A stretch of DNA of 64,000 nt from positions 6,905-70,904 of the forward strand of contig CAZSFQ010000001.1 in the NCBI GenBank assembly GCA_964606165.1, in the 5' to 3' direction. Below, one piece after another: positions 23,331 through 64,000 of this stretch (positions are counted from its first letter, which is position 1; every line of letters starts with the position of its first letter). The translations under genes were made by a program, and so were the position numbers. The notes beneath the pieces were generated by a model. It saw nothing but the letters and a program-made list of their open reading frames with translations, did no database searches and was not told the origin of the DNA. Source of the stretch: an uncultured Mageeibacillus sp. (GTDB taxonomy: Bacteria > Bacillota > Clostridia > Saccharofermentanales > DTU023).

Positions 23331-23370
23331 GATATTTAAAATAAGATCCGCCCCGTCTGGAGCGGATCTT
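23331..23370 (-). terminator. terminator-like hairpin downstream of the last prophage-side genes
   Basis: A 9-bp stem AAGATCCGC/GCGGATCTT is followed on the minus strand by ATTTTAAATAT. A second small hairpin, TTTGGC/GCCAAA, lies at 23374-23392. Confidence 0.4.
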
Positions 23371-23415
23371 CGCTTTGGCATCCTACGCCAAAACGAATAC
23401 AATCCACTCATGGCA

Positions 23416-24378: not shown

Positions 24379-24459
24379 TAAGATATCCTCCTATTTTATA
24401 TAATGTCATATTTAGCATACATTGTATTGTTCGTTTAATGGACCGCTAACCTAATACCG

Positions 24460-24511: not shown

Positions 24512-24515
24512 GATT

Positions 24516-25667: not shown

Positions 25668-26052
25668 TAATTGCTTCCAGCATGTTTCTCAGAGCCTTCG
25701 GAATCGGCAGCCCCAAATGAGCTGCATTTTCCAGAATAGAAATGCCCTCGTTTGAGAGATAGAAAAAGATGACGGCGGTTCTAATGGCACTGCCATTCTT
25801 CAAGACAGCGGTATCAAGAATGTTTCCAATACCGACCAGTGTGAGGATCAAGACCTTTCTTGCGATTCCCTTAAAGCCGACTTTGCTTGAAAGTTGTTTG
25901 TCCTCGATGGCGCAAAGCACGCCTGTGATGTAGTCCGTTATGACAAAGGCAATCAGGGCAAAAAGAAAGCCGTCCAGCCCTCCGATAAACCAGCCGACAG
26001 CCCCGCCTACAGCAGCAAATGCTGCCTGAACGGTATTCCAGATGTGTTTCAT
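25639..26052 (-). CDS. phage holin (phi LC3 / holin_4_1 type)
   Basis: AFVITDYITGVLCAIEDKQLSSKVGFKGIARKV plus TM helices. The start is at the internal ATG 26052. Confidence 0.8.
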   Translation of the reverse strand: MKHIWNTVQAAFAAVGGAVGWFIGGLDGFLFALIAFVITDYITGVLCAIEDKQLSSKVGFKGIARKVLILTLVGIGNILDTAVLKNGSAIRTAVIFFYLSNEGISILENAAHLGLPIPKALRNMLEAINEEDEDESE

Positions 26053-26127
26053 GTTGAAGTCCTCCTTCCAAATAAAAAATGCCTGCACATGGGCAGACAC
26101 TTTTTTCCGTGATAAATATTTATATGT

Positions 26128-29162: not shown

Positions 29163-29170
29163 ACGATCAC

Positions 29171-29368: not shown

Positions 29369-29379
29369 AAGCCGCCTCC

Positions 29380-31905: not shown

Positions 31906-31907
31906 CT

Positions 31908-32684: not shown

Positions 32685-32696
32685 CCGTCTCCTCCT

Positions 32697-50523: not shown

Positions 50524-50540
50524 ATTTTTCTCCCTTCAGA

Positions 50541-50673
50541 TGAACAGGCGTACAAGCTGAACAGGAATTTCCTATATTTACTACGCGCGTGTACGTCTGT
50601 GCCATTTACTCTTTCTCTAGTGTTTTCTCTCAAATAATTAACTAGAGAAGTTGTTCAGCTTGTGACTTGTTCA
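50541..50673. repeat. long-range inverted repeat with nested hairpin between the VapE and VRR-NUC genes
   Basis: TGAACAGGCGTACAAGCTGAACA (50541-50563) pairs with TGTTCAGCTTGTGACTTGTTCA (50652-50673). The cores ACAAGCTGAACA and TGAACA are perfect. An inner 7-bp hairpin CTCTAGT/ACTAGAG lies at 50615-50647, and the palindrome ACGCGCGT starts at 50583. Confidence 0.6.
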
Positions 50674-53000
50674 GTTCTGACGTAGACCCGCTGGCGCCCG
50701 TATATGGGAAGTGTCCTGAGTTTTCCGGTGCGCTCCCAGCCATCGACTTGGACCATCAGGGCGGCGATGGCATAGGAATCAACCGGCTTTAAGTCGGCAA
50801 GATTTCTGCCAAAGCACTCACACCAGATCTCGGCATTGCTGACCTCGGTGCGCCTAATTGAACCTTTGCAAGATGTGATATCGCCTTCGAGATAGTTGCG
50901 TCTGTCGTAGACATCCATATCCGCCCAGTTGTCCGGCAAGAGCCGGGAAAGATACTCCTCAACCAGCCCTTGGCGCTCGTCCGCTTCCATCGCACTCTTC
51001 TGGGCATCTTCCGCCTCCCGCAGGAGGTCGCCTTCCAGATAGAGTTTCTCTCCTTGTTCGTAGTAGTACTTGGCCTCCGCCCAGATCTGGTCCCGCTCCT
51101 CGGGTGTAATCGTCCAGTCCACACGCTGTTCCGTCTGATGGCACTTAATAATCCAAAATCGACGGTTGCCTGTGATGTCACGCAAATAGCCCCGCTCGCC
51201 GTTGACCGTAGCAACGATGATGCACTGCCTGGGATGGCTTTCCACGACCTTGCCATAGCTGGGGCGGTACTTGTCGTCCGCTGTGGATAGAAAGGATTTG
51301 ACCTTTTCGATGTCCGCCTTTTTCATTCCGGCAAGTTCGCTGATCTCGATAATCCAAAAGCCCTGCAGTTTCTCTGCGGCGGATTTATCGCTCATGTCGG
51401 TAAGCGAAAGGGAATCCGAGAAATAATCGTCTCCTGCAAGCGAGCGCCACATGGTGCCCTTGCCGATACCCTGTGCACCGTCGATGACCGTCATGCTGTC
51501 AAACTTCGTGCCCGGCTCATAGATGCGGGCAACCGCCGCAGCTAAGGTCTTCCTCGATACCGTACGGACATACTTCGTGTCGTCCGCCTTCAGGTATTTA
51601 ATAAAGAGCGTTTCCGCCCGTACCTTTTTATCCCAGAGAGGAAGGGAATCCAGATAGTCTCTGACAGGATGAAAGCGCCTGTCATCGGCCACCTTGGTAA
51701 AACTGACGTTATGATTGCGGTCGGAAAAAGGGACATAGCGAACGTCCAGCAGGGCTTTGAGCTGGGCTGTGTCGGCATCCCGCCAGAACTTGTTATCCAG
51801 CGGCCGATCCCAGGGAATCTCACCTGTGACCTGAACCCGATGCGCCATCTCGTTGTAGGCAAAACCGGCAAAGTCGGGGTCATTGTTTAAGATCAGCATT
51901 TCGTTCCAGACGCTGTTTTGCAGGACTGTGCTTCTGGACATGTACTGGAGATCTTTTTGCCAGTCTGCATTCTCTCTGCCAAAATCCTCTCCGGCCTGCT
52001 TTCGCTTTTCTTCCATGCCACGGAGCTTCACCTTGTCGAGCGACATGGCAAATTCGCACATCTGATTGAAGCTTTTCTTGTCGTCACCGAACTTATGCAG
52101 GCGTACCAAATCAAAAGCATTGCAGAGTTTCAGATAGGCGATATCTTTTGCGTGATGGCTGTAGACAAACTTGCCGTCCTCTTTGATCTCGACACCGGGC
52201 AGGCTGTCCGAGCCAATCAGGTGGTAGCGGTTGGGATTGTCCGTTGCTTCATAGATCTCCGGCAGCAGCTCCTCCATTGCCGCGCTGATGGGAAAATAGG
52301 TGCGGTTGAAAAGACCGACCACACCTGTTTTTGTGAGCGGGTCCTGTACCTTTTTTACTTCCGTTGAATTGGCCCTGCTCTCCCTTGAGGAAGTAGGCAG
52401 CTGTGCAGGATCTTTCCAGCCCGGGTGTTTTGCAAGGATATTGTCAGGATCAAGCCAGTCTTTATCGGCTTCTTTGAAAACATACTCACCGTTGGAAGGC
52501 GTGCTTGGCCAGTACATGAGCTGGTTGGAAAGATAGGAGCAGGAATCAAAATAATCGATGCCAAGCATGTCCGCAAGAAAGCGTGCCACAGCGACAAATT
52601 CTTCCGCCGTCACATCCCTTGTAAGCGGGAAGATAATCCTGATTCTCGGGGCTTCCGGCGTATGGCTGTGAGTCGTATAAAAGCAGGACGCATAAGGTGT
52701 TAGCGACTCAAAGTTCTCAAGAAACTCCGGCTCAATATAATCACCGTCAAGCGCAATCATGGAGCGGGAAGCCACAGTATTGGAGAGCCTTCGTCCTCCG
52801 ACCAGAACCCCGGCAACAAAACCGCCGTGATTTTTGGCCGTCTGCCGCTCAGCTTTCGTCATGCGTTTGTATTCTTCAGCGGACTCAGGTGTACGGATGG
52901 TGACCTTGAGCCGCTCCTTTAATTCATCAAAGGTGATGGTCTTATTGGACCATTTCTTGGCGTAGCAGCTGCTGCCATAGGCAATTGGCAAATCTCTCAT
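50655..53000 (-). CDS. VapE-family (virulence-associated protein E) primase-helicase-like replication protein
   Basis: Walker A VIDGAQGIGKGT, and a Walker B-like segment in FWIIEISELAGM. The size and N-terminal region are typical of phage VapE proteins. The start is ATG 53000 after a GGAGGAGG RBS. Confidence 0.85.
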   Translation of the reverse strand: MRDLPIAYGSSCYAKKWSNKTITFDELKERLKVTIRTPESAEEYKRMTKAERQTAKNHGGFVAGVLVGGRRLSNTVASRSMIALDGDYIEPEFLENFESLTPYASCFYTTHSHTPEAPRIRIIFPLTRDVTAEEFVAVARFLADMLGIDYFDSCSYLSNQLMYWPSTPSNGEYVFKEADKDWLDPDNILAKHPGWKDPAQLPTSSRESRANSTEVKKVQDPLTKTGVVGLFNRTYFPISAAMEELLPEIYEATDNPNRYHLIGSDSLPGVEIKEDGKFVYSHHAKDIAYLKLCNAFDLVRLHKFGDDKKSFNQMCEFAMSLDKVKLRGMEEKRKQAGEDFGRENADWQKDLQYMSRSTVLQNSVWNEMLILNNDPDFAGFAYNEMAHRVQVTGEIPWDRPLDNKFWRDADTAQLKALLDVRYVPFSDRNHNVSFTKVADDRRFHPVRDYLDSLPLWDKKVRAETLFIKYLKADDTKYVRTVSRKTLAAAVARIYEPGTKFDSMTVIDGAQGIGKGTMWRSLAGDDYFSDSLSLTDMSDKSAAEKLQGFWIIEISELAGMKKADIEKVKSFLSTADDKYRPSYGKVVESHPRQCIIVATVNGERGYLRDITGNRRFWIIKCHQTEQRVDWTITPEERDQIWAEAKYYYEQGEKLYLEGDLLREAEDAQKSAMEADERQGLVEEYLSRLLPDNWADMDVYDRRNYLEGDITSCKGSIRRTEVSNAEIWCECFGRNLADLKPVDSYAIAALMVQVDGWERTGKLRTLPIYGRQRVYVRTEQVTS

Positions 53001-53002
53001 AC

Positions 53003-53320: not shown

Positions 53321-53322
53321 GT

Positions 53323-53354
53323 AAAAAAGCTCCTTTCGGATTATTTAGAGGAGC
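53323..53354 (-). promoter_or_regulatory. hairpin whose 3' arm is the Shine-Dalgarno of the DUF4406-like gene, followed by a T6 run
   Basis: On the minus strand, GCTCCT (53354-53349) pairs with AGGAGC (53334-53329). This is followed by TTTTTT, then AC, then the ATG. Confidence 0.45.
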
Positions 53355-53358
53355 CATC

Positions 53359-53392
53359 AAAAAAGGATATTGAAAGTTTCCTCTCAATATCC
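53359..53392 (-). terminator. strong rho-independent terminator closing the R-M / ABC-3C block
   Basis: On the minus strand, the stem GGATATTGA/TCAATATCC with a 10-nt loop is followed by TTTTTT. Confidence 0.7.
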
Positions 53393-53440
53393 CCTTGGAC
53401 AAGTCATTCAGTTTTGGGCAAACTTTTTTAGATAGTGTTT

Positions 53441-54319
53441 TTACTCGGTGGCTTCAATATCTTTTAGGGTTTTCCCGGATTCATCTTTCCACATGACGTT
53501 TCCGCTTAAAGATGACCCACCAACGAAACCCGCGGCAGCAGAAGGGCTGGTAAACAGCAAATCAGCCATTAAAAATCCTTGATCATCAATTTTCCCTGCA
53601 TATTTCTCACGATAGTTGATGACATTGTCAGGACAGCTTTTCGTCATAGAAAGAGAAATCTTGCTTCCGGCTAAAACGACAAATCCCTCCGGTGTTCGTT
53701 TCCCTGTGGCTTCGGCCTTCGTGGTCTTGAAATACAAGTTAGGTTCATCGTCAATGGGACTAATCTCAATCACTGTAGGCTTGCTGGCCACTATGGGCTC
53801 AAAAACCTTGTAGCCTAGGGCTCCCATGACTAGTTTTGCGTAGGAGATAAACTCCTCCAGCTCACTCTCTTTTTCTTCAGTGGTGTTGCCGGGGCTTGGG
53901 TCATTGCCATTTTTGACTGAATAGCGTTTCGCATCAATCGCCATGTTACAAAAACGATTTTCTAAATAACTGATTTCCGTTGGGCCGAATGAATTATTTG
54001 AAGTGGTGAAGGCAACGGCCTCCGTCCAATAATCCATCTTGCTGTCACGGCGATGCTCATCCAGACGACAGAGGATGCCCCGCCCGTTCTTGCGAATACC
54101 TGCCTGGCCGATATAGACAACAGGGTCTCCGCTATCATCGGAAGTGCCGAAAAGAAAGTAGACACCTGTCTGGTCAAGATAAGTGATCTCCCGTGCCTTA
54201 TCCAGCATGGTGCGTGGAATTTTATAGGCGATACCGGTCCAGTTGGCCAACGTGCATTTGATGCGACCGGAAGCGTCTCCGTCCATCAGGAATAAATTGA
54301 TGTTTTTACCTCTTTTCAT
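53441..54319 (-). CDS. GIY-YIG nuclease-like domain protein with DUF4357-like C-terminal domain
   Basis: GVYFLFG...VVYIGQAG...R..EH...KMDYWTEA is a GIY-YIG-like core. The C-terminal GFVVLAGSKIS...SPSAAAGFVGGSSLSGNVMWK is typical of DUF4357. The start is ATG 54319 after a GGAGGTG RBS. Confidence 0.7.
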   Translation of the reverse strand: MKRGKNINLFLMDGDASGRIKCTLANWTGIAYKIPRTMLDKAREITYLDQTGVYFLFGTSDDSGDPVVYIGQAGIRKNGRGILCRLDEHRRDSKMDYWTEAVAFTTSNNSFGPTEISYLENRFCNMAIDAKRYSVKNGNDPSPGNTTEEKESELEEFISYAKLVMGALGYKVFEPIVASKPTVIEISPIDDEPNLYFKTTKAEATGKRTPEGFVVLAGSKISLSMTKSCPDNVINYREKYAGKIDDQGFLMADLLFTSPSAAAGFVGGSSLSGNVMWKDESGKTLKDIEATE

Positions 54320-54346
54320 GCTTAGAGCCACCTCCAAAATCACATG

Positions 54347-57300
54347 TTAGGTTTCATCTGTAAATGGTGCCTTACCTTCAGCAACCGAAAGATATTTCAA
54401 ATCTTCCGATTTAATTTTCGGATATTCACGATTTAAGCTCTGGTCACTACTCGACAAATCATCTTGATTGACGTATGGCTTCCCCTCCGTGTTATAGGTC
54501 AAATTGAAAACCAAATCAGAGAGCCATTTTTTGAAGGAAGGATTATCCTGAAATTGCTTAAACAGCTCCATATTGTCGGACATGATGGAAAAAATTACCT
54601 GCTGCAGGGCGCGTTCACTTTCAGTACGTGCCTCCTGCTCGTCGGAATTTTTCATAGCGTTCTGATATTGCTTGTTCTTAGATACCATGGCAGGAATTTC
54701 AAGAATTTGACGCTGTACATTATCCGCATCTTTCCAGTTGATGTTCCCAAACATATCATTAAAATCCAGGATGATCTTAGAAAGTAGATCCATTTCAGGC
54801 TCAACAATGAAGCCTACTTTGCCTGCGGGAACGGGTGGTATTTCGGCGTCCTCATCTTCAAGCTTTATGGAAATTGCTTCTCTTGCTTCGTTTCGATAGC
54901 TGCCCAGATCAACCGTAGAAAGGATACCTTCAGATAGATCATCTGTGCCTGGAGATGGCAGCTTGGGAATGAGTAAATTTAGAAAGATGGAGAGCCTCTC
55001 CCAGTCGATATTTCCGTAGGGCAAAATCGAACCCAGAAAACCATACGTGCGAACGAAAGACTTGGCCGCACTTTTGAACTTGATTTGATCATCTACTTCC
55101 AGCTGCTTATAGACAGCCGTACAGGCATCGAGAATGGGATCAAGCCTGTCGCGCTCTGCCCCGTTCAGAAACAGCTCAACCAGTGTTTCAACATGATCGT
55201 TGTCATAAACCTGATAACTTTCCATCAAGGAAATAAGGTCATATAGCTTGTTTGGGTCAGTTTCTCCGGACAAAATGGTTGTCCTGTAAAATTTGGAAAA
55301 TGCAGCCTCAATGACAGAAGTTTTATTAGCAAAATCAAGAACATAAACATCATGTTTGCCAGGATAAGATCTGTTGAGCCGCGAGAGTGTCTGAACCGCT
55401 GCGATGTCATAAAGGGGTTTATCCACATACATCGTCTGCAGCAGGGGTTCGTCAAATCCGGTTTGAAACATGTCAGCTACAATAAGTATGCGAAAGGGGT
55501 CTTTTTTGAATTCCTTAGGTATTTTTGCATCCGGAAAGCCATTGAGCGCCGCAGATGCAAGGGCAGGTTCCAGCCCCTTGTACTTGTGTTCACCGGAAAA
55601 GGCAATAATGGTTTTATAAGGGCTGCGTCGTTCTGCGAGACATTTGTTGATGGCATAGTAATACTCAACACAGCGCCCTATACCTGCCGTTACCACCATC
55701 GCTCTTGCCTGACCGTTTATTTTCCTCTTGGCTATAATCTGTTCATGAAAGTGCTCGACTATCATAGCCGCTTTTTTGGCAATGACATCTGAGTTACCCT
55801 CGACAAAGCTACGTAGTTTCTTTTGTGCCCGCTTCTTGTCAAACATGGGATCATCTTCAACCGTTTTCATGATTTTGTACCAGGAATCTATGGTTGTGTA
55901 ATTCTTTAACACATCGAGAATGAAACCCTCCTGGATAGCCTGCTTCATCGTGTAAACGTGGAAAGGACGGTGTTTTATTTCCCCGTCGACCTCATACATG
56001 GTGCCAAACATTTCCTCAGTCTTATTTTTAGGCGTTGCCGTGAAAGCAAAATAGCTGGCCTTGGGTACGAGTTTGCGCCCTTCCATCATGGCATTGATTT
56101 TGTCTTCATTGTCCAGCTCATCCATTGCAGCCTGACCAGAAAGTGCCAGGTTCATCTGGGCGGAATTTCGGCCACTTTGACCTGAATGTGCTTCGTCAAT
56201 GATGATGGCAAATTGATTGTCTTTGTGCGCCTGACCCAGCTCAGAAATAATATAGGGAAATTTTTCGATCGTGGTCACGATGATTCGTTTGCCATCTTGA
56301 ATGGCCTGGCGCAAATCACGAGAATACTCTGCCCACGCAACAGTATTCTTGACCTGCATAAATTGTTTGATTGTATCTCTGATTTGCTTATCCAAAATCC
56401 GCCTGTCAGTCACAACCAGCACAGAATCAATCATAGGACGACCACCCTCTTCCAGTCCTATGAGCTGGTGAGCCAGCCAGGCGATAGAATTGGATTTCCC
56501 ACTGCCGGCGCTGTGTTGGATGAGATATCGTTTCCCGACGCCACTTAGTTTGACATCCGCTAAAAGCTTTTCTACGCAATCTAACTGATGGTAACGCGGC
56601 CAGATTTGTTTGATGGTCTTCTTCTTGGTATCAGGATCCACTTCTTCAGTGACCTGGGCATAATTCTCAATAATGCGGGATAGCTTCCTTTTGGTCAGAA
56701 TATTCTTCCACAGATAGTCCGTCATCAAACCATCCGGATTGGGCGGGTTTCCTGCACCATCGTTATAACCTTTATTGAAGGGTAAAAACCAGCTGTCTTT
56801 TCCTGCGAGTTTTGTGCAAAACTGAATCGTGGCATCATCCACAGCAAAGTGGACGATACAGCGTTTAAAATGAAAGATTAGATCACGCGGATCTCGATCT
56901 TCTTTATACTGGCGCACAGCATCTTCCGTTTTTTGCTTGGTCAGTTGATTTTTTAGCTCCATGGTGATGACCGGAAGACCATTGATGAACAAACAAAGGT
57001 CAAGAGCGAGCTTTGTCGCATCCTGCGAATAACGAAGCTGCCGTGTCACGCTGAAGATATTTTTCTCCCACATGAGCTTTGCTTGCCGATTGTTTTCAGT
57101 TGGCGTCAGATAAAACATGATTAGGTCAGCAGGATAAACCTTGACGCCCTTGCGTAGCACATCAATAATGCCACGCTTGGCAATCTCTCCGGACAGGCGA
57201 TTAAGAAATTGTCGCTTCTTTGTATCCGATTTGAAGACACCTAGTTTTTCCATCTCTTCCGGCTGAGTGTCTTCGAGGAAGCGAAATAAGCGAGTCTCAT

Positions 57301-57424
57301 CAACTGCATATGCTTTATTGTAGTCTGCGTTTATCCCCTCCTCGTAATCATTGGATTCAACCAGATATTTTACGATTAAGGATTCAAGACCACTTTCTTT
57401 GGTGTTGGAAAAAGCCATACTCAA
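54347..57424 (-). CDS. hsdR: type I restriction enzyme R subunit
   Basis: An N-terminal nuclease region, then QHSAGSGKSNSIAWLA (motif I), IIIDEAHSGQ (DEAH), and a helicase C-terminal half. Confidence 0.95.
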   Translation of the reverse strand: MSMAFSNTKESGLESLIVKYLVESNDYEEGINADYNKAYAVDETRLFRFLEDTQPEEMEKLGVFKSDTKKRQFLNRLSGEIAKRGIIDVLRKGVKVYPADLIMFYLTPTENNRQAKLMWEKNIFSVTRQLRYSQDATKLALDLCLFINGLPVITMELKNQLTKQKTEDAVRQYKEDRDPRDLIFHFKRCIVHFAVDDATIQFCTKLAGKDSWFLPFNKGYNDGAGNPPNPDGLMTDYLWKNILTKRKLSRIIENYAQVTEEVDPDTKKKTIKQIWPRYHQLDCVEKLLADVKLSGVGKRYLIQHSAGSGKSNSIAWLAHQLIGLEEGGRPMIDSVLVVTDRRILDKQIRDTIKQFMQVKNTVAWAEYSRDLRQAIQDGKRIIVTTIEKFPYIISELGQAHKDNQFAIIIDEAHSGQSGRNSAQMNLALSGQAAMDELDNEDKINAMMEGRKLVPKASYFAFTATPKNKTEEMFGTMYEVDGEIKHRPFHVYTMKQAIQEGFILDVLKNYTTIDSWYKIMKTVEDDPMFDKKRAQKKLRSFVEGNSDVIAKKAAMIVEHFHEQIIAKRKINGQARAMVVTAGIGRCVEYYYAINKCLAERRSPYKTIIAFSGEHKYKGLEPALASAALNGFPDAKIPKEFKKDPFRILIVADMFQTGFDEPLLQTMYVDKPLYDIAAVQTLSRLNRSYPGKHDVYVLDFANKTSVIEAAFSKFYRTTILSGETDPNKLYDLISLMESYQVYDNDHVETLVELFLNGAERDRLDPILDACTAVYKQLEVDDQIKFKSAAKSFVRTYGFLGSILPYGNIDWERLSIFLNLLIPKLPSPGTDDLSEGILSTVDLGSYRNEAREAISIKLEDEDAEIPPVPAGKVGFIVEPEMDLLSKIILDFNDMFGNINWKDADNVQRQILEIPAMVSKNKQYQNAMKNSDEQEARTESERALQQVIFSIMSDNMELFKQFQDNPSFKKWLSDLVFNLTYNTEGKPYVNQDDLSSSDQSLNREYPKIKSEDLKYLSVAEGKAPFTDET

Positions 57425-58773
57425 TCCTCCTCATTTTCAAAATCTGAGTCAGCCGGATCTTCATCAAGATCTTCGTCAAACTCTTCTTCGATATATTCAA
57501 AATCAGGAACCTTTACATCTCGTACGTCAATCTGACCGGTGACAACATCGGAGATGAGACGGGATTTGAGTTCGTGCAGAAGATCTACTTTTTCATGTTT
57601 TTTATCAGTAAGTTCATCAATCTTCTTCAGTTGATTATCTATTTGGGACAATATTTTCTTTTGATTATTTAAATTTGGAACATCTAGTTTGATTGACAAT
57701 AGTGCATTCATGTCTAAATTTTGAATACCAGTAGTCTGCTTTATTATCCTTCTAATGTCGCCTGTAAAGTGCAACAAATGAAGATTTAATAACGCATACT
57801 TCGGGCCTATTACTCTTTCATCTATCCTTAAACACTGTAAAAAGTTCGCAAACAAAGCCTTATATGGCTTATCAAAAATTACCGTCCGTCCAACAGGGGT
57901 TTTATCTCCGCCGCCAGACTTTTCAACCAAGATATCCCCTTTTTGTAATGTCAACTCGTCAATTTCTTTTTGAGTATAGTATCGATGTGTAAGTTGTTCC
58001 GGCTTGGTATTTACAAATTGTCCAGACATGAAATCCATATCAGCAACACGCAGGCAGATACACTGTTTTTTATCCTCAGCGTTGTCAGAACCCCACGATC
58101 CTGTCAGATTTTTCATTAACAGCCGTTTCAAGGGTATTTGACGGGTATCGTTAGCTGATTTTAAGGTATCAGCAATTACCTTTTTTCTTGCTTCTTGTAA
58201 AAGTGCAAGCTGTTCTGAACATATTCTTATCAGCCGATTGATCTCCGACACTTTCCAGTCCAGATAACGTACAATTTGATCCTGTTCTTCTCGAGGAGGA
58301 ACGGGAAGCTTAGTGGACATAAACGATTCAATTTTTATTGTTTTTCTTAAGCCAGTATAAAGTGGCTTGAGCCCCTTCACTTTATCTATCGATAAATAGA
58401 AGTAATAAACGAAACGAGAATTTATATTATGCACGTGCATAATATTATAAGCACCTGTCAGCATTCCATCAAATGCTGACAATCCAACTGTTCTAGGCGT
58501 TTCATCGATATCAAAAAGACAAAACGCCATATCACCTTTTTTTACAATTTTATATTTATCAAAAGATGCAGGGAATTTTCCCTTAGGATTATCTATATCT
58601 CTCGGAACTATCCCATTCAGTGTCAATGACAGAAGAGTGTAACTGCTGTGATCATTTCCAACTTCATCCTTTGATTCTATAAAAACATTTTTGTTACGCC
58701 ACAATTCCCAATGGGACGGAACAATTCTTACCCACTGAATATCAGTATTCTTATAATCCTCATACCTCCTCAT
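57421..58773 (-). CDS. hsdS: type I restriction enzyme S (specificity) subunit
   Basis: Two target-recognition-domain halves separated by conserved coiled-coil spacers (REEQDQIVRYLD... / ...LNNQKKILSQIDNQLKKIDEL). It has 4-nt overlaps with both hsdM and hsdR. Confidence 0.9.
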   Translation of the reverse strand: MRRYEDYKNTDIQWVRIVPSHWELWRNKNVFIESKDEVGNDHSSYTLLSLTLNGIVPRDIDNPKGKFPASFDKYKIVKKGDMAFCLFDIDETPRTVGLSAFDGMLTGAYNIMHVHNINSRFVYYFYLSIDKVKGLKPLYTGLRKTIKIESFMSTKLPVPPREEQDQIVRYLDWKVSEINRLIRICSEQLALLQEARKKVIADTLKSANDTRQIPLKRLLMKNLTGSWGSDNAEDKKQCICLRVADMDFMSGQFVNTKPEQLTHRYYTQKEIDELTLQKGDILVEKSGGGDKTPVGRTVIFDKPYKALFANFLQCLRIDERVIGPKYALLNLHLLHFTGDIRRIIKQTTGIQNLDMNALLSIKLDVPNLNNQKKILSQIDNQLKKIDELTDKKHEKVDLLHELKSRLISDVVTGQIDVRDVKVPDFEYIEEEFDEDLDEDPADSDFENEED

Positions 58774-60776
58774 GCCAGATCCTCCAGTAAGCCTTCCAAC
58801 AGCCCGTCTGACTCGTTTTCTATCTGTTTCAGCTCTTTAATGATTTCTGCCATTGGTCTAAGTTCGATGGGTTTATAGAAGTACTTGGTAAAGCTGACTT
58901 CATAGCCGATTTGGGTTTTCTTTTCGTCTATATATGCGTCTGGTGCATAAGGGTACACTTCCTTTTCCATGAAGGCGTTGATGCCACCATCATAGGTGAA
59001 AGGGATCAGCTCGGTATCCCTAAGATCCGTATCGGCTTCACCGTCTACTGCCTTTGCCGATGCGTCTTTTTCTGTGATGAAGGGTTGAATTCTCTTCAGC
59101 ATGGCGGCTTTAAGCCCCGTAGCTTTAGCAAAGGCGGTCCAGTCATCCAAAGAGCCAACAGTTGCTGCTTTCTTTACGGCTTGCCGTACTTCTTCCGGTT
59201 TATCATTCTTTCTAAAAGCACTGTCCGGGACTTCATTTTCTGGATGGACACGCAGCCTAAGTGGTCGATCCACGATAACCGACCAATAAGCAAAATCCTT
59301 GTTTAAGAAAACCTTACTGACTTCACTCTCTTCCATATCACAGAAGATGCGGACGATTTCTTTGCGAATTTCCGGTGTGAATTTGCAATTCTTTTTCCCC
59401 ATGTTCTTTTTTAGCGGCGATTTCATAGCCGTCGCATCAATCAGCTGAACTTTGCCTTTGCGCCGCTCTTCTTTTTTATTGGACAGAATCCAGATATAGG
59501 TGGCAATCCCCGTGTTATAAAACATGTTCTCCGGTACGGCGACAATGGCTTCTACGAGGTCGTTCTCAAACATGTAGCGTCGGGCATTGCTCTCACCGCT
59601 GCCGGCATCTCCCGTGAATAAAGACGACCCGTTATGGACCTCGGCAATCCTGCTGCCGATTTCCGTATCTTGCTTCATTTTGGAGATATTGTTTAGTAAA
59701 AAGAGTAGCTGTCCGTCGCTCACACGCGGCAGCATCTGCATCGCCTCTCCACCCTCCAAATAGGCATTGAAGCGGGTGTCCAGAATATTTTTCTTGCCTC
59801 CCATTTTTTCAGCGTCCGTTTTCCAACTTTTGCCGTAGGGCGGATTAGAGAGCATGAAGTCAAAAGACCGTGCAGCATGCTGGTCATCGGAAAGTGTAGA
59901 CCCATACATGATATGCTGGGCTTCTTCTCCATCCCCTTTGAGGAGTAAATCAGCCGTGCAGATGGCGTAGGTTTCAGGATTTATTTCCTGGCCAAAAAGG
60001 TGGATGGATACGTCTTTGCCACGCCTTTGGGCAAGAGTTTGCAGCCTGTCCTGGGCAACAGTCAGCATTCCGCCTGTGCCGCAGGCTCCGTCATAGCAGG
60101 AATAAGAAGCGTCCATTATTTTGTCGGCAATCGGCACAAAGATGATATCCGCCATGAGCTCTACGACATCACGTGGAGTCCAATGTTCTCCGGCTTCTTC
60201 ATTATTTTCTTCATTGAACTTGCGAATCAATTCTTCGAAAATCGTACCCATACTATGATTGTCCAGCCCCGGATGTTTGAGTATCGTTTTTTCTTCGTCC
60301 AGGTATACCGGTTTGGGGCTTAAATTGATTTCGGAGGAGGTAAATTTCTCAATAACGGAACCCAAGATATCTGCATCGATCATGGTGTCAATCTGGTTTC
60401 GGAATTTAAACTTGTCAAGAATAAGTTGGACGTTGGGAGAAAAGCCATCTAAATAGGCAATAAAGTCAGCTTTTAAGGTTTGAGCCTTTGCACGGCTGGT
60501 AAGGTCTTTCAGAAGGAATGGTGATGCATTACAGAAGGCTTCCCCAGCGGCATTGCAAAGTGCAGGCCACTGGTTATCAATCTTGGCAGCATCAAGTTGT
60601 TTTTTCATTTTAAGAACGTCATCTTTTGTGTCTTCCAGTACGGCATCTAAACGCCTAATAACCGTCATTGGGAGAATCACGTCGCGATACTTTCCGCGTA
60701 CATAAACATCGCGCAAACAGTCATCGGCAATACCCCATATAAAACTGACAATTTTATTGTAAGTCTGATTATTCAT
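58770..60776 (-). CDS. hsdM: type I restriction-modification system M subunit (N6-adenine methyltransferase)
   Basis: The HsdM N-terminal domain is IVSFIWGIADDCLRDVY..GKYRDVILPMTVIRRLD. DGACGTGGML is motif I and NPPYG is motif IV. Confidence 0.95.
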   Translation of the reverse strand: MNNQTYNKIVSFIWGIADDCLRDVYVRGKYRDVILPMTVIRRLDAVLEDTKDDVLKMKKQLDAAKIDNQWPALCNAAGEAFCNASPFLLKDLTSRAKAQTLKADFIAYLDGFSPNVQLILDKFKFRNQIDTMIDADILGSVIEKFTSSEINLSPKPVYLDEEKTILKHPGLDNHSMGTIFEELIRKFNEENNEEAGEHWTPRDVVELMADIIFVPIADKIMDASYSCYDGACGTGGMLTVAQDRLQTLAQRRGKDVSIHLFGQEINPETYAICTADLLLKGDGEEAQHIMYGSTLSDDQHAARSFDFMLSNPPYGKSWKTDAEKMGGKKNILDTRFNAYLEGGEAMQMLPRVSDGQLLFLLNNISKMKQDTEIGSRIAEVHNGSSLFTGDAGSGESNARRYMFENDLVEAIVAVPENMFYNTGIATYIWILSNKKEERRKGKVQLIDATAMKSPLKKNMGKKNCKFTPEIRKEIVRIFCDMEESEVSKVFLNKDFAYWSVIVDRPLRLRVHPENEVPDSAFRKNDKPEEVRQAVKKAATVGSLDDWTAFAKATGLKAAMLKRIQPFITEKDASAKAVDGEADTDLRDTELIPFTYDGGINAFMEKEVYPYAPDAYIDEKKTQIGYEVSFTKYFYKPIELRPMAEIIKELKQIENESDGLLEGLLEDLA

Positions 60777-60990
60777 CTGCCTCTCCCTCTCTTATAGTTT
60801 CAACGATATCGTTAAGTTCAACATCTAAAGCACTGCAAATCCTCATCAGGACATCGGTTGTCACGTTTTCATCTTTGCCAAGCTTGGCAAGAGAAGATGA
60901 GCTTATACCTGCGGCTTTTCTGAGATCGGTCTTGGTCATATCTTTGTCAATTAGCAATTTCCAAAGCTTCTTATAGCTTGTCTTCATCAT
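60769..60990 (-). CDS. small XRE/Cro-type HTH protein linking the ABC-3C cassette to hsdM
   Basis: The HTH is MTKTDLRKAAGISSSSLAKLGKDENVTTDVLMRICSALDVELNDIV. Its stop overlaps the hsdM start by 8 nt, and its start is 7 nt after the ATPase stop. Confidence 0.75.
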   Translation of the reverse strand: MMKTSYKKLWKLLIDKDMTKTDLRKAAGISSSSLAKLGKDENVTTDVLMRICSALDVELNDIVETIREGEADE

Positions 60991-60997
60991 ATTGTGA

Positions 60998-62632
60998 TTA
61001 CCCCTTGTTCCATGAGGTTCCATATAACTCACCTCCATTATCTGAAAGCTCCAGAGCTGTATTTGCTTCAACGATTCTTGCAGTGTCCTCCGTATAGGAA
61101 AGATGCTTATCAAAAGCTATAAAAATCTGTTTTTCACTGCGGTCATAGATTTTCATGATGCCGTCGACGGAGCTGTCGCCCACGTTTTTCAAAAGCAGTG
61201 AGTCGTGTGCAATGGCTGGAAGGTCGGTAAGCTCAAGCACCGCCAGATCATATAGAAGCAGACCTTTATAATTCGTTCCGGTGCCTGTGTCATGTGGCGT
61301 CTGAAAACGATAGCTGTTGTATTCATTAAATTTCAGAGTAGGAGCCCTTCGCCTATCTTCAAAGAGCGAATCATTATATTCTTTCATCTTGCCATTTAAG
61401 GCATCCTCTATTTCAGCAAGAATAACTGTCGTTGCCTGCTTTAATAAATCGTTAGCCTTTTTCTGTGCAGCTTGCAGTTCTGTCAATTTCAGGTACGCAT
61501 CATTCTGTCGCTGAAGCGCATCGATCCTGCCCTTTAAATCTGAATAACTGTCGAGAAATTCTTGAGAAAGGTCGCCGAAAAAGCCAAGCTCTAAAATCTG
61601 ATCCTTAATCTGTTTTATTTGCTCACGCAGAAACTCTATATGATGGCTAACCTCTAGTCTTTCTTCTTCGAACTGATTGTCCAGAATCCTCGCCAATTTG
61701 CGATGGTAGCCTTCCACCTCGTAAATTTTTCTGACATCAGCCTTCGGAAAAAACTCTTGTAATGCATTAAGATCAGCTTCAGTCGGATAGAGACCGTACT
61801 CAAGACTCATATCCAAAAGTTTCATTTTTCGTTCAAATGCGGAGAGCTGATTTTCCAGCTCCATCTGTTCTCGCTTCAGTTGGCGCTTGGCCTGACTTTT
61901 TTCAATATCATCACGAGAATTTGTCTCTACCTGATCGTTCTCCAGGTTCTCCAATTGAATTCGGAGCTCATTTATTTGAGACAGGTTGTTTTCAAATTGC
62001 TCTTTTCCGCCAACCAGAGCCGGTACAAATTGATAATTTCGAGCTTTTCTAAATACAGATAGTTGCTCCCTTTGCTCATCCTTCCTGGTATTCAGCACCT
62101 CAATTTGTTGGTAACGATCAAAAAGGCAAATAACCCGTTTAATTGATCTTTCCATGGTGTCGCCCTGTATTCCGTATAGTGGTTTTTTCTCATCCAGATT
62201 GTCTTTACCATAGATTCGAAAAAAGCCACTGATCGCTTCACGGAATGAGATGCCATGAAAATCAGCTTGATAATTTTCCTGAAGCCACATTAAAAACTCG
62301 GCCTTTTCCCAGGTTTCTTCTGTCAGGTTATTTTTGTCATCACATAGGTGTATTAGATCCGGTGTTTTGGTCGAACGGGCAAATCTCTGCTTTTTACCAT
62401 TGAATTCAAAAGCAAAGAATATAGTATGGTCTCCCAGATGCTTAACACCATCACTTGTGAGATAGCTTGAGCCACCGAAGACAAAATCAATGGCAAGCAG
62501 TGCAGAGGATTTTCCAATGGAGTTTGTTCCGTCCGCTTTTCCCAATATGACGTTTAAGCCTTTATGGAATTTTATGGGTTTGCGTACCTGATCTCCTATT
62601 TTAAATGCCGGAGAACTCATCTCTATAAGCAC
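60998..62632 (-). CDS. SMC/Rad50-like ABC ATPase with long coiled-coil insert (DUF2326-type; ABC-3C ATPase component)
   Basis: The N-terminus GLNVILGKADGTNSIGKSSALLAIDF is a Walker A. About 300 aa of heptad-rich helix follows. The C-terminal GLLLYDLAVLEL...IAHDS is a Walker B/D-loop-like region. Confidence 0.65.
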   Translation of the reverse strand: MLIEMSSPAFKIGDQVRKPIKFHKGLNVILGKADGTNSIGKSSALLAIDFVFGGSSYLTSDGVKHLGDHTIFFAFEFNGKKQRFARSTKTPDLIHLCDDKNNLTEETWEKAEFLMWLQENYQADFHGISFREAISGFFRIYGKDNLDEKKPLYGIQGDTMERSIKRVICLFDRYQQIEVLNTRKDEQREQLSVFRKARNYQFVPALVGGKEQFENNLSQINELRIQLENLENDQVETNSRDDIEKSQAKRQLKREQMELENQLSAFERKMKLLDMSLEYGLYPTEADLNALQEFFPKADVRKIYEVEGYHRKLARILDNQFEEERLEVSHHIEFLREQIKQIKDQILELGFFGDLSQEFLDSYSDLKGRIDALQRQNDAYLKLTELQAAQKKANDLLKQATTVILAEIEDALNGKMKEYNDSLFEDRRRAPTLKFNEYNSYRFQTPHDTGTGTNYKGLLLYDLAVLELTDLPAIAHDSLLLKNVGDSSVDGIMKIYDRSEKQIFIAFDKHLSYTEDTARIVEANTALELSDNGGELYGTSWNKG

Positions 62633-62847
62633 AAAAACACCTCGCCTTCATCTGACATATCAATTGCTCTGAGAGCATACAGACAATCCATTACTGCTAG
62701 AAAATCTGTCGCTTCACTCAGTCTTGGTCTTGTCATAATATATAATTCACGAACGGATTTGGATCCGTCCTTCAACTCATTCAGCACCTCCGGTATCAAA
62801 GCCAAGGTGCTGTTTTTATATGAGTACAATTTATTCGGTAATTGCAT
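62623..62847 (-). CDS. small (74-aa) middle-component-like protein of the ABC-3C cassette
   Basis: The internal ATG 62847 gives MQLPNKLYSYKNSTLALIPEVLNELKDGSKSVRELY..., which is winged-helix-like. The gene overlaps both neighbours (17 and 10 nt). Confidence 0.45.
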   Translation of the reverse strand: MQLPNKLYSYKNSTLALIPEVLNELKDGSKSVRELYIMTRPRLSEATDFLAVMDCLYALRAIDMSDEGEVFLCL

Positions 62848-63979
62848 CAAACACCTCACAGCTCTGGATGAAATAGGAGACGACAACCTGGCAGTAAATA
62901 ATTTCTTGAAGCGTCTGTCTGTGGATCTTTTCAGCGATCTCAGCAAAGATCTCCATTTGATTTTTATTCTTTTTGGAGAGGCCCCTATATATAGCATGTA
63001 TCTGGTTTTGCAAGCTCTCGTAGTCAATTTCTCCTCGTTTATCGAGGTTCATCATAATTTCACGAACAGTTACGAAGTAGCTGAGCACAAAATTTTTTAC
63101 CGTCAAATATAAGAGATGCTCATGAGAAGAATCGATCTTCTTAGTCAGTTCCTTGGGATCAAATGACACTTCCTCAAAATCCTGCATTTGGAGCTTTTTT
63201 ATTCTCGTAACTACACCGACAATGCCTCGTTCTAGTGGCAACTCGTCAAGCATTTGAATAATCTGTCGTCTTGCTAAAAGTGTTTTCTTCACTGCTTTCA
63301 GTTCTTTGCATTTTTTCTTGTTGTCGTCCAGTGAGTACGTTGCGTAGCAGCAAGGACACATCGCAAGCAAGTTTTCTGGGCTGGCTTTCACGTTTTTGTC
63401 GATTAAGCCTACCTCGAAGAAAGATGCAGCTTTATGGTTTGCTGTGACTACGAGCGATCGACCGCAACCTGGAAAAGGACAAGTGTTTTCAGCCTCAGCA
63501 AGAAGATAATTGCCGTATTGATTTTTCAAATCCAAGGCCAGCTGAGCTTGTTGCTGTGCTTCTAATTTGCTTTGAGATACCAAGCCGGCCGATTGTTGAA
63601 TAACACTGACCATCAATTCAGAAACTTTTTCTCCAACATTTTCGGCATTAATAGTTGAGTCGTAACTTTGCAAATCCTCGGCTAACAATTTACGTTGAGT
63701 TTCATTTCGCTCATTAATTCTCTCTGTCAAAAATTCCGGTGTCAGCCGATACACGATATTTTTTGCCAGTGTCTTTGACAAACCCCTCTTTGAGTAGTTT
63801 CGAAGCGTTTCATCTTTCATCTTTTTAGAAGGATCTTTCGACGTGCCCCACTCTTCCTCAGCAACAGTCGTAATCATGGCCATCAGTTCACGGAAAAAAT
63901 AGGGAACAGCATCTCCATCCGCCATATGCTTTTTTAGAATTTTAAATAGCATTTGAAAATTCAAGGCCATTGTCTCCAT
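62831..63979 (-). CDS. ABC-3C effector-like protein: helical N-terminus, CxxxxC...CxxC zinc knuckle with degenerate HNH-like spacing, conserved helical C-terminal domain
   Basis: Contains CPFPGCGRSLVVTANHKAASFFEVGLIDKNVKASPENLLAMCPCCYATY. The C-terminal tail is ...IIYCQVVVSYFIQSCEVFD. It is the first gene of the coupled block. Confidence 0.5.
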   Translation of the reverse strand: METMALNFQMLFKILKKHMADGDAVPYFFRELMAMITTVAEEEWGTSKDPSKKMKDETLRNYSKRGLSKTLAKNIVYRLTPEFLTERINERNETQRKLLAEDLQSYDSTINAENVGEKVSELMVSVIQQSAGLVSQSKLEAQQQAQLALDLKNQYGNYLLAEAENTCPFPGCGRSLVVTANHKAASFFEVGLIDKNVKASPENLLAMCPCCYATYSLDDNKKKCKELKAVKKTLLARRQIIQMLDELPLERGIVGVVTRIKKLQMQDFEEVSFDPKELTKKIDSSHEHLLYLTVKNFVLSYFVTVREIMMNLDKRGEIDYESLQNQIHAIYRGLSKKNKNQMEIFAEIAEKIHRQTLQEIIYCQVVVSYFIQSCEVFDAITE

Positions 63980-64000
63980 CCTTTAGATTTTGAACCACGC

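What the first reader, a model, noticed from the sequence alone, without database searches (positions are those of the whole stretch)
53323..64000. The defence island appears to be cargo inside the prophage, between replication genes
The phage genes run co-directionally up to the DUF4406-like gene (53003-53320). The lysis cassette and the prophage edge lie at the low-coordinate end. No integrase, repressor or DNA polymerase is seen in the window. In phages with the VapE / VRR-NUC / SNF2 / HNH / P27-TerS layout, as I recall them, a DNA polymerase, DUF2815/DUF2800-type genes and the lysogeny module lie further upstream. If so, the 10.5-kb AT-rich island sits inside the prophage. It is insulated from the phage genes by a terminator (53359-53392) plus a second hairpin that sequesters the SD of the next phage gene (53329-53354).
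Basis: inference. Interest (0 to 1): 0.55.

Follow-up and report, generated by a model that had tools for sequence, protein, structure and literature searches.

The report
Defence-gene slot inside a prophage
The 10.6-kb AT-rich block at the end of the window is anti-phage defence cargo carried inside a roughly 50-kb integrated phage, at a fixed slot where related phages carry other defence genes; this kind of feature is known, but not for this phage group.

Summary
The finding holds. Window 53441-63979 is eight tightly packed minus-strand genes. They encode an ABC-3C system, an HTH protein, a complete Type I restriction-modification system and the candidate defence gene PDC-S14. GC is 42.8%, against 51.1% for the phage backbone.

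Contigs 99.98-100% identical to the window run past base 64000. They show a sigma-like regulator, DUF2800, DUF2815, DNA polymerase A and a large serine recombinase. These genes lie on the opposite strand, diverging from the island.

The prophage's left edge is at window 23375. In close relatives the right edge abuts a tRNA gene just after a second recombinase. The island therefore sits about 30 kb and 9 kb from the two ends.

Backbone homology to relatives always stops at window 53404-53422. Beyond that point relatives carry other cargo: Type III R-M plus Hachiman, PDC-S06 plus methylases, other Type I R-M, or a PglX-like methylase. One relative has an almost identical island in a backbone that is 8-16% diverged in nucleotide sequence, which indicates horizontal exchange.

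The terminator is convincing and conserved, but it belongs to the backbone, not the island.

Verdict: a new member of a known kind, a prophage-encoded defence hotspot. An unplanned lead is a 32-bp motif heading three backbone operons that tracks the allele of the sigma-like gene.

The parts
23336..23375 (.). Left prophage/host junction (att-like). Phage sequence ends ...TTGGCATCC (plus strand) and is followed on the host side by a terminator-like hairpin.
   Evidence: Homology to nine contigs with different flanks stops at 23375/23374, and at 23336 in L155/L159. Junction sequences were read. Genes to the left are cellular-type.
24516..26100 (-). Lysis cassette: holin 25639-26100 and amidase_2/LysM endolysin 24516-25667.
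   Evidence: Pfam Phage_holin_4_1 E 9e-42; Amidase_2 plus LysM.
50655..53000 (-). VapE-like primase/helicase gene (backbone).
   Evidence: Pfam VapE-like_dom E 5e-77. Gene callers give 781 aa on the identical contig L003.
53003..53320 (-). DUF7768 gene, the first gene of the rightward backbone operon.
   Evidence: Pfam PF24963 E 2e-42. The same protein is found behind two different cargos.
53329..53354 (-). Weak hairpin that pairs with the Shine-Dalgarno sequence of DUF7768 (backbone).
   Evidence: dG -8.7 kcal/mol, z -2.1. Conserved in 7 relatives, with 3 more pairs in most of them.
53359..53392 (-). Intrinsic terminator (backbone): 16-bp stem plus U6. It ends transcription coming out of the cargo slot.
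   Evidence: dG -20.6 kcal/mol, z -4.9. Conserved in relatives that carry five different cargos.
53391..53422 (-). Copy 1 of the bipartite motif TTTGCCCAAAA-N10-TGTCCAAGGGG. It marks the last conserved backbone bases, and its 3' end overlaps the 5' arm of the terminator.
   Evidence: One match in the window, 0 expected by chance. Two more copies lie beyond the window at ext 64942-64973 and 69301-69332. Homology breakpoints fall at 53404-53422.
53423..64000 (-). Defence cargo island. It continues to about ext 64375, roughly 375 bp past the window. It is eight overlapping or abutting genes, apparently one transcription unit.
   Evidence: GC 0.428 against 0.511. Gene content. The slot is variable in relatives.
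53441..54319 (-). PDC-S14 candidate defence gene (DUF4357 C-terminal domain), 292 aa as called.
   Evidence: PADLOC PDC-S14 E 2e-109; Pfam DUF4357 E 1e-11.
54347..57418 (-). Type I restriction subunit HsdR.
   Evidence: Pfam HSDR_N, SWI2_SNF2, ResIII and T1R_D3-like; PADLOC REase_I.
57421..58773 (-). Type I specificity subunit HsdS, with two target-recognition domains. It is the most AT-rich gene (GC 0.367) and is replaced in the relatives L072/L163 and L185.
   Evidence: PADLOC Specificity_I E 2e-112. Replacement seen.
58770..60776 (-). Type I methyltransferase HsdM.
   Evidence: Pfam N6_Mtase E 9e-54 and HsdM_N; PADLOC MTase_I E 3e-245.
60769..61023 (-). Small HTH_26 (Cro/C1-type) protein, 84 aa, possibly a controller of the R-M genes.
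   Evidence: Pfam HTH_26 E 1e-18. Gene call. The controller role is an inference.
60998..62632 (-). ABC-3C ATPase (DUF2326 / AAA_23).
   Evidence: Pfam DUF2326 E 2e-16. Weak PADLOC matches to LmuB and PDC-M68B.
62623..62847 (-). ABC-3C middle component MC7, 74 aa.
   Evidence: Pfam MC7 E 3e-23. Gene call.
62831..63979 (-). ABC-3C effector-type protein with CTD11. Its N-terminus resembles LmuA/HamA N-terminal domains.
   Evidence: Pfam CTD11 E 2e-37. PADLOC LmuA E 1e-11 and HamA E 4e-5 over the N-terminal 140 residues.

Best explanation
The island is accessory defence cargo in a dedicated variable slot inside an integrated temperate siphovirus of about 50 kb. The phage carries all nine marker genes used to define Ca. 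Heliusvirales.

Prophage extent. It runs from window 23375 (lysis end) to about 9.5 kb beyond the window. There it ends with two large serine recombinase genes next to a tRNA gene.

Position of the slot. The backbone has two operons that diverge from each other. One runs DUF7768-VapE-VRR-NUC-SNF2 and on into the packaging, structural and lysis genes. The other runs p107-DUF2800-DUF2815-PolA, and the recombinases follow it. Between them lie a sigma-like regulator gene and the cargo.

Expression (inferred). The eight cargo genes overlap or abut. They are probably transcribed as one unit from a sigma70-type promoter just outside the window. Transcription would then stop at a strong terminator that belongs to the phage backbone. 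The lysogen could therefore express the cargo without reading into the lytic genes.

Function (inferred). The expressed cargo protects the lysogen, and so the prophage, against other phages and foreign DNA. It would do this by restriction (Type I R-M) and by abortive or nuclease-type systems (ABC-3C, PDC-S14).

Turnover (shown by comparison). Cargo is swapped between related phages by recombination in the conserved flanks. The specificity subunit of the R-M system is swapped separately.
For: Shown.
- Phage replication genes and a serine recombinase lie beyond the island on contigs 99.45-100% identical to the window.
- In the 710-kb contig, the distance from the lysis-end junction to the recombinase equals that in window plus extension, 46.9 kb. 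The prophage is therefore contiguous.
- Relatives with 88% nt identity over the replication module end LSR1-LSR2, then about 370 bp, then a tRNA, then host genes.
- L175 overlaps the extension by 181 bp at 100% identity.
- The record PV036460.1, labelled a complete genome, has the same layout, with Type III R-M plus Hachiman in the slot.
- Breakpoints are the same in five relatives, at 53404-53422.
- At least six cargo variants exist, nearly all of them defence or methylase genes.
- In L185 the island is 99-100% nt identical while the adjoining backbone is 84-92%.
- Island GC is 0.428 against 0.511-0.514 on both sides.
- The terminator is strong and conserved.

Inferred.
- The promoter, from one consensus match, TTTACA-18-TGnTAAAAT, about 125 nt upstream of the first cargo gene.
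- Expression in the lysogen.
- Protective function.
Against: - The right end of the prophage was not seen in the window's own strain. It rests on relatives and on a 181-bp identical overlap.
- No excised or circular attP junction was found in IMG/VR, so activity of this prophage and packaging of the island are unproven.
- No empty attB site was recovered.
- The promoter call is a single consensus match, no more than chance gives in that stretch.
- PDC-S14 and ABC-3C are candidate or poorly characterised systems, and no function was tested.
- PADLOC's Lamassu models match the ABC-3C genes only weakly.
Confidence: 0.85

Rival explanations
1. The island is a chromosomal defence island lying between two separate elements: a prophage ending at about 53.4 kb and another integrated element carrying the polymerase and recombinases.
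For: The polymerase module is on the opposite strand from the rest of the phage. The island's GC differs from both sides. The island starts at a sharp homology breakpoint.
Against: - DUF2800, DUF2815 and PolA are core markers of this phage order, and in about 60 relatives they sit directly upstream of DUF7768 (PMC11283538).
- There is no other polymerase or integrase among the window ORFs scanned.
- A record labelled a complete phage genome has the same layout.
- The same 32-bp motif heads operons on both sides of the island.
- Host junctions were found only at 23375 and next to the tRNA.
Confidence: 0.03
2. The island is an autonomous mobile element, such as a transposon or small integrative element, that inserted itself into the prophage.
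For: Its GC is foreign to the phage. It is nearly identical in a diverged backbone. A roughly 60-bp imperfect inverted repeat brackets the sigma gene plus island.
Against: - None of the eight genes encodes a transposase, integrase or recombinase.
- There are no target-site duplications or terminal repeats other than the bracketing motif. That motif is a backbone element also present a third time, and in relatives with other cargo.
- Unrelated cargos occupy exactly the same junction. This fits replacement by flanking homology better than independent insertions.
Confidence: 0.05
3. The cargo mainly serves the phage during lytic growth, for example by methylating progeny DNA or degrading host or competitor DNA, rather than protecting the lysogen.
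For: The cargo is co-directional with the long lytic operon and sits immediately upstream of it. The backbone also carries a SAM synthetase and a ParB-methylase, which are typical counter-restriction genes.
Against: A strong conserved terminator separates the cargo from the lytic operon. The cargo has its own candidate promoter. A complete R-M with a restriction subunit, ABC-3C and PDC-S14 are defence-type systems. Cargo in relatives is Hachiman, PDC-S06 and similar.
Confidence: 0.07

Closest known systems
Defence hotspots of P2-like prophages and P4-like satellites (Rousset et al. 2022, PMC9122126)
   Same: A fixed locus is flanked by conserved phage genes. Its content differs between related prophages and is dominated by anti-phage systems. 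It lies inside the mobile element, not beside it.
   Different: The virus and host differ: a siphovirus with Heliusvirales markers in uncultured Bacillota, against P2 myoviruses and P4 satellites of enterobacteria. The slot lies between two divergent early operons next to a sigma-like regulator gene. It is closed by a conserved backbone terminator. The island here stacks three or four systems in one 10.5-kb overlapping gene array.
Morons of lambdoid phages (Hendrix/Juhala concept; from my own knowledge)
   Same: Extra genes with deviant GC lie between backbone genes, with a promoter in front and a terminator behind. They are thought to be expressed from the repressed prophage.
   Different: The terminator here is part of the backbone and is shared by all cargos. 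The unit is an eight-gene island rather than one or two genes. The promoter is only predicted.
Canonical Ca. Heliusvirales genome layout (de Jonge et al. 2024, PMC11283538)
   Same: All nine marker genes are present. The closest database phages are labelled Heliusvirales.
   Different: In about 60 relatives the order is sigma, p107, DUF2800, DUF2815, PolA, then about 170 bp, then DUF7768, all on one strand and with no island. Here the sigma-to-PolA module has the opposite orientation, and 7-11 kb of cargo sits at the new junction. That paper does not describe a defence hotspot. A 2026 preprint notes only that defence systems occur in this clade.
Prophage-mediated defence loci of mycobacteriophages, near the centre of the genome beside the immunity/integration cassette (Dedrick et al. 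2017; from my own knowledge)
   Same: Variable defence genes are expressed from the prophage. They lie in the early/regulatory region rather than at the att end.
   Different: The phages, systems and regulatory context are unrelated.

Membership tests
Prophage-encoded defence hotspot (sensu PMC9122126) | Fixed position bounded by conserved phage genes | tested here: met
   Homology breakpoints fall at window 53404-53422 in L071, L073, L074, L075 and L001. On the other side they fall at ext 64962 or 64387. The 105 nt upstream of DUF7768 are conserved.
Prophage-encoded defence hotspot (sensu PMC9122126) | Different gene content at that position among related phages | tested here: met
   At least six variants were seen:
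- the window type;
- L071/L162 (PDC-S06 plus two methylases);
- L073 (the same with a C5 methylase);
- L001 (Type III R-M plus Hachiman);
- L074 (Type I HsdR and others);
- L075 (PglX-like).
Prophage-encoded defence hotspot (sensu PMC9122126) | Content enriched in known or candidate defence systems | tested here: met
   Pfam and PADLOC matches. A few cargo genes (309, 204 and 333 aa) have no match.
Prophage-encoded defence hotspot (sensu PMC9122126) | Cargo shown to protect against phages | not testable with these tools
   This needs deletion or transfer of the island followed by phage challenge.
Ca. Heliusvirales | Nine marker genes: TerL, portal, major capsid, protease, exonuclease (DUF2800), ssDNA-binding protein (DUF2815), DNA polymerase, endonuclease (VRR-NUC), helicase (SNF2) | tested here: met
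   Six are in the window (VRR-NUC only weakly, E 8e-4). Three are on the 99.98%-identical extension L004. The marker list comes from PMC11283538.
Ca. Heliusvirales | Placement inside the order in a TerL phylogeny | not tested
   The evidence is indirect only: the best DNA matches among deposited phages are records labelled Heliusvirales, at 65-75% identity.
Type I restriction-modification system | HsdR, HsdM and HsdS genes together | tested here: met
   All three are adjacent with overlapping stops and starts.
ABC-3C (ABC three-component) conflict system | ABC ATPase, small middle component, and effector-type protein with a family CTD | tested here: met
   Pfam DUF2326/AAA_23, MC7 and CTD11, in adjacent overlapping genes.
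Lamassu | LmuA effector and LmuB SMC-like ATPase recognised by family models | tested here: inconclusive
   The PADLOC matches are weak or partial: LmuB E 5e-9, and LmuA E 1e-11 over the N-terminal 140 aa only.
PDC-S14 (PADLOC candidate system) | Full-length match to the family model | tested here: met
   E 2e-109 over residues 6-297. The family itself is only a candidate defence system.
Moron | Own promoter and own terminator, expressed in the lysogen | tested here: inconclusive
   There is one consensus promoter match. The terminator is real but belongs to the backbone. Expression cannot be tested here.
Serine-recombinase prophage integrated at a tRNA gene | Recombinase genes at one end, abutting a tRNA 3' end; host DNA on both sides | tested here: inconclusive
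   LSR1 is seen on L002/L004. LSR2, the tRNA-Thr or tRNA-Cys junction and the host genes are seen only in relatives, linked to the window by a 181-bp identical overlap. The left junction is seen in the window itself.

The most novel reading that the evidence does not exclude
The variable segment may be more than passive cargo. It may be a cassette made of a phage sigma-like regulator gene plus defence genes, bracketed by two inverted copies of a 32-bp regulatory motif, TTT(G/A)C(C/T)CAAAA-N10-TGTCCAAGGGG.

The same motif heads three backbone operons: DUF7768 through the late genes, p107 through PolA, and the small genes through the recombinases.

The motif's first half-site tracks the allele of the sigma-like gene, against the backbone phylogeny. 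This suggests the encoded protein reads the motif.

The motif copies coincide with the two homology breakpoints. They also coincide with the ends of the module whose orientation distinguishes this lineage from canonical relatives. They could therefore be both the regulatory switch and the recombination anchors that created the slot and keep refilling it.

The terminator's 5' arm overlaps copy 1. It could therefore act as a one-way insulator. It would stop read-through from the cargo. Transcripts that start at the motif, or are antiterminated there, would pass it.
Probability: 0.25. Interest if true: 0.6.

Novelty: new member of a known kind. Interest (0 to 1): 0.4.

Why it matters
Heliusvirales-type phages are reported as the most prevalent family-level phage cluster in one human gut cohort. 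They also occur in other metagenomes.

A fixed, exchangeable defence slot inside such phages would make them vehicles that move whole defence islands between Bacillota hosts. One 11-kb stretch of this phage's tail and lysis end is 100% identical in a genome whose flanking host genes are only 75-80% identical.

The slot is also a practical place to look for new defence genes. Several cargo genes (309, 204, 333 and 542 aa) match nothing in Pfam, and PADLOC gives at most one weak match (the 542-aa gene, capP E 2e-6).

The conserved motif and terminator offer a defined, testable model of how a temperate phage expresses cargo while keeping its lytic genes silent.

Tried and rejected
- Exact-protein look-ups of the CTD11 protein and the endolysin found nothing on record, probably because start codons were called differently.
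- The single genome-contig scan, with the recombinase N-terminus, found only relatives of 61% identity or less. The source organism was not identified.
- The metagenome scan did not return the two near-identical contigs themselves, only relatives with 94-97% recombinase identity.
- Looking up the host ECF sigma factor to find an empty attB returned one 1.4-kb contig that does not reach the junction.
- Two searches of IMG/VR for the predicted attP junction gave no match...GGAGTCCTTTTA|TGGCATCC..., exact and with a variable core. A search with the lysis-end arm found only one more integrated copy.
- Rfam found no known RNA family in 52000-64000.
- I asked whether contig L153 shows the excised form. 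It joins the lysis end through Fic/Phd, GmrSD and DUF5063 to a recombinase pair. I rejected it as evidence because its recombinases and early genes are of the PV036460 type, not the window type. The contig is also 69 kb, longer than one genome, so it could be a mosaic phage or adjacent prophages.
- I considered a simple flip of the sigma-plus-cargo segment to explain L074, where a sigma-like gene sits directly upstream of DUF7768 on the same strand. I rejected this because its other cargo genes are also on that strand.
- A sigma70-type promoter between the terminator and the DUF7768 start is ruled out by space: only 38 nt, and these are occupied by the SD hairpin.

Full report
**Layout of the window.** Bases 1-23374 carry ordinary cellular genes: FeoB, aldehyde dehydrogenase, phosphofructokinase, a cold-shock protein, and an ECF sigma factor with a PrsW protease.

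From 23375 to 53422 every substantial gene is on the minus strand and is phage-like. The genes are:
- a 193-aa AT-rich gene, then endolysin and holin;
- tail genes, HK97-type capsid, ClpP protease, portal and TerL;
- small genes, a ParB-methylase and a SAM synthetase;
- TerS (Terminase_4), HNH, SNF2 helicase, VRR-NUC (weak match), VapE and DUF7768.

From 53441 to 63979 there are eight more minus-strand genes with overlapping or abutting ends (gene calls):
- PDC-S14/DUF4357;
- HsdR, HsdS and HsdM;
- an 84-aa HTH_26 protein;
- a DUF2326 ABC ATPase, MC7 and a CTD11 protein. The last three form an ABC-3C system.

GC is 0.428 in this block. It is 0.511 in the phage backbone and 0.524 in the host part.

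**What lies beyond base 64000.** The exact HsdM protein occurs on six public contigs. L003 is 100% identical to window 49731-64000 and extends 1.1 kb further. L004 is 99.98% identical and extends 6.8 kb. L002 is part of a 710-kb contig, is 99.45% identical and extends equally far.

Beyond the island, on the opposite strand, these contigs carry:
- a 179-aa protein with a sigma-70 region-4/GerE-type HTH;
- a 107-aa protein;
- DUF2800 (exonuclease), DUF2815 (ssDNA-binding protein) and DNA polymerase A;
- three small genes;
- a 430-aa large serine recombinase.

In the same 710-kb contig the lysis-end junction and the start of the recombinase gene are 46.9 kb apart. That equals the distance in window plus extension, so the element is one contiguous block inside a chromosome.

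**Ends of the prophage.** I looked up the exact 193-aa protein next to the endolysin. It lies on many contigs whose similarity to the window stops abruptly at 23375/23374, and at 23336 in the strain of L002/L004. After that point the flanks differ. In each case the flank begins with a different terminator-like hairpin.

For the other end I used relatives. Their replication module is 88% nt identical to the extension, and one of them (L023) has a first recombinase 97% identical in its N-terminal 183 residues. In these a second recombinase (532 aa) follows the first. About 370 bp later comes the 3' end of a tRNA gene: tRNA-Thr in L170-L179, tRNA-Cys in L023. Then come host genes, including an ABC transporter with a GntR regulator, glmM and cdaA.

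Contig L175 carries this end, and its first 181 bp are 100% identical to the end of the extension. The other relatives are about 88% identical there. L175 is therefore probably the right flank of the window-type phage.

On this evidence the prophage is about 50 kb. The island lies about 30 kb from one end and about 9 kb from the other. The right end in the window's own strain is inferred, not seen.

**A fixed slot with changing cargo.** I compared close relatives with the window. Backbone similarity on the DUF7768 side ends at:
- window 53416 in L071;
- 53404 in L073;
- 53416 in L074;
- 53422 in L075;
- 53422 in L001, which is PV036460.1, a Heliusvirales record labelled a complete genome.

On the other side it ends at ext 64962, just past the sigma-like gene, or at 64387 in L001.

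Between these points the relatives carry:
- Type III Res and Mod plus Hachiman HamA/HamB in L001;
- two unknown genes, HTH_17, PDC-S06 (AAA_13), an unknown 333-aa gene and two Type II methylases in L071/L162;
- the same set with a C5 methylase in L073;
- the end of a Type I HsdR, a 542-aa gene and another sigma-like gene in L074;
- a PglX-like methylase in L075.

The identical 105-aa DUF7768 protein sits behind two different cargos.

Within the window type, L072/L163 have a different HsdS (257 aa) and a different HsdM C-terminus. In L185, HsdS is only 71% identical.

L185 is also 99-100% nt identical to the window across 56700-53700 but only 84-92% identical in the adjoining backbone. The change occurs near 53700-53400. 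This is the footprint of recent transfer of the island between diverged phages.

No cargo gene in the window encodes a recombinase or transposase. The only bracketing repeat is the backbone motif described below. Replacement by recombination in the conserved flanks is therefore the most economical mechanism. This is an inference.

**How this lineage differs from its relatives.** In those, sigma-like gene, p107, DUF2800, DUF2815 and PolA are followed after about 170 bp by DUF7768, all on one strand and with no island.

Only the close relatives of the window phage have the sigma-to-PolA module on the other strand, with 7-11 kb of cargo at the new junction.

One inversion would give exactly the observed order. 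It would lie between a motif copy upstream of DUF7768 and an inverted copy at the head of the recombinase operon. L115 shows a canonical relative with the recombinase on the opposite strand upstream of the sigma-like gene. This is an evolutionary inference.

**The two hairpins.** The terminator at 53359-53392 is convincing: a 16-bp stem, -20.6 kcal/mol, z = -4.9, followed by U6.

It and the 105 nt upstream of the DUF7768 start codon are conserved in seven relatives that carry five different cargos. One base pair changes on both sides and stays paired. The terminator is therefore a feature of the slot, not of this island.

The second hairpin pairs with the Shine-Dalgarno sequence. It is weak in the window (-8.7 kcal/mol, z = -2.1). 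It is conserved, and in most relatives it is three pairs longer.

Only 38 nt separate the terminator from the start codon. That leaves no room for a standard promoter. RNA polymerase must therefore either start within the motif/terminator region or be antiterminated. Which of the two applies is open.

**A motif found in passing.** The last conserved backbone bases, 53422-53391, read TTTGCCCAAAA-N10-TGTCCAAGGGG. There is one match in the window and none expected by chance.

Two more copies lie in the extension, each pointing into an operon. One lies between the sigma-like gene and p107. The other lies directly after PolA, before the small genes and the recombinases. The first two copies form an inverted repeat around the sigma-like gene plus cargo.

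Relatives have the motif at the same three places. L071, L073, L023 and L170 read TTTACTCAAA in all copies. The window and L001 read TTTGCCCAAAA.

Every backbone protein is much closer between the window and the ACT-type phages (85-100%) than between the window and L001 (27-84%). The sigma-like protein is the exception: 56% against the ACT-type and 79% against L001. The regulator allele thus tracks the motif type against the backbone phylogeny. This suggests that the protein recognises the motif.

The sample amounts to two allele groups, and L074 does not fit neatly. I therefore treat this as a lead.

Canonical relatives also have a repeated bipartite motif before p107 and before DUF7768, but no U-tract terminator there.

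**Expression of the island.** The 396-bp region between the first cargo gene and the sigma-like gene lies just outside the window. It holds one good sigma-70-type match, TTTACA-18-TGnTAAAAT, about 125 nt upstream of the CTD11 start and pointing into the island. That single match is no more than chance gives. The promoter, and expression in the lysogen, are inferences.

**Comparison with what is known.** Hotspots of defence genes inside prophages are established for P2-like phages and P4-like satellites (PMC9122126).

The paper that defined Ca. Heliusvirales lists the nine markers but no such hotspot (PMC11283538). A 2026 preprint notes only that defence systems occur in this clade.

This is therefore a new member of a known kind. 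Its particulars are the position between divergent early operons, a backbone terminator that closes the slot, and a sigma-like gene inside the variable segment.

**Limits.**
- The right end is not seen in the window's own strain.
- No attP or empty attB was found.
- Phage activity, packaging of the island and all functions are untested.

Noticed in passing
window 53391-53422 (-); beyond the window at ext 64942-64973 and 69301-69332 (L004 5804-5835 and 1445-1476, minus strand): A 32-bp bipartite motif, TTT(G/A)C(C/T)CAAAA-N10-TGTCCAAGGGG, heads three backbone operons. Its first half-site (GCC or ACT) tracks the allele of the 179-aa sigma-like protein, against the backbone phylogeny. Canonical relatives have an analogous repeated motif.
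   Followed up: partly
L002/L004 1-6400 compared with L076-L150: The sigma-p107-DUF2800-DUF2815-PolA module has the opposite orientation in this lineage compared with about 60 canonical relatives, where PolA sits about 170 bp upstream of DUF7768. The ends of the module coincide with motif copies.
   Followed up: partly
window 23380-23445; L175 2560-2650: Short TGCACCC repeats cluster on both prophage arms. There are three copies next to the lysis-end junction and four after the second recombinase gene. They may be arm-type or accessory-factor sites around attP.
   Followed up: no
L175 2866/2867, L170 11953/11954, L023 about 13235: The same phage end abuts the 3' end of tRNA-Thr(TGT) in one host and tRNA-Cys(GCA) in another. 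The phage carries its own terminator-like hairpin just before the junction. In L154 the host-side hairpin is homologous to that phage copy.
   Followed up: partly
L153, L156, L157, L158 from position about 11004 (equivalent to window 23375): There is a second variable region at the lysis end in phages with 97-98% identical tail and lysis genes. It starts with Fic/Phd and HTH_26. After that, L153 has GmrSD plus DUF5063, and L156 and L157 have Type III R-M, followed in L157 by a TIR-SEFIR protein (L158 ends before this part). In L153 this region runs straight into a different recombinase pair and PolA.
   Followed up: partly
window 23374-34378 compared with L154 (GCA_050950805.1, 2.36-Mb contig): Eleven kb of the phage tail and lysis end are 100% identical in another genome. 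The adjoining host genes there (ECF sigma factor, PrsW) are only 75-80% identical. This suggests recent spread of the phage between different hosts.
   Followed up: no
window 57431-59316: HsdS and the C-terminal part of HsdM are replaced in otherwise 94-98% identical islands. L163/L164 have HsdM of 607 aa and a half-size HsdS of 257 aa. In L185, HsdS is 71% identical. HsdS is the most AT-rich gene, at GC 0.367.
   Followed up: partly
window 23797-24378 (-): A 193-aa AT-rich gene (GC 0.369; precomputed Pfam HI_0787_N) lies between the endolysin and the prophage end. The identical protein is indexed in 175 blocks of the public collection.
   Followed up: no
window 44361-46722 (-): The phage backbone encodes a SAM synthetase and a ParB-N6/N4 methyltransferase fusion next to the small terminase gene. 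These are typical counter-restriction or auxiliary genes.
   Followed up: no
L071 1255-2785 and 5334-6335; L074 1419-3047: Cargo genes of 309, 204 and 333 aa accompany PDC-S06 in the slot, and a 542-aa gene lies in the L074 slot. None has a Pfam match. PADLOC matches only the 542-aa gene, weakly (capP, E 2e-6). They are candidates for undescribed defence components.
   Followed up: no
window 537-1811 (-) and 13527-14600 (+): The host part contains a Schlafen/AlbA_2-HATPase_c_4 protein and an HTH_3-Peptidase_M78 (IrrE-like) protein. Both types are often linked to defence or mobile elements. Both lie outside the prophage.
   Followed up: no
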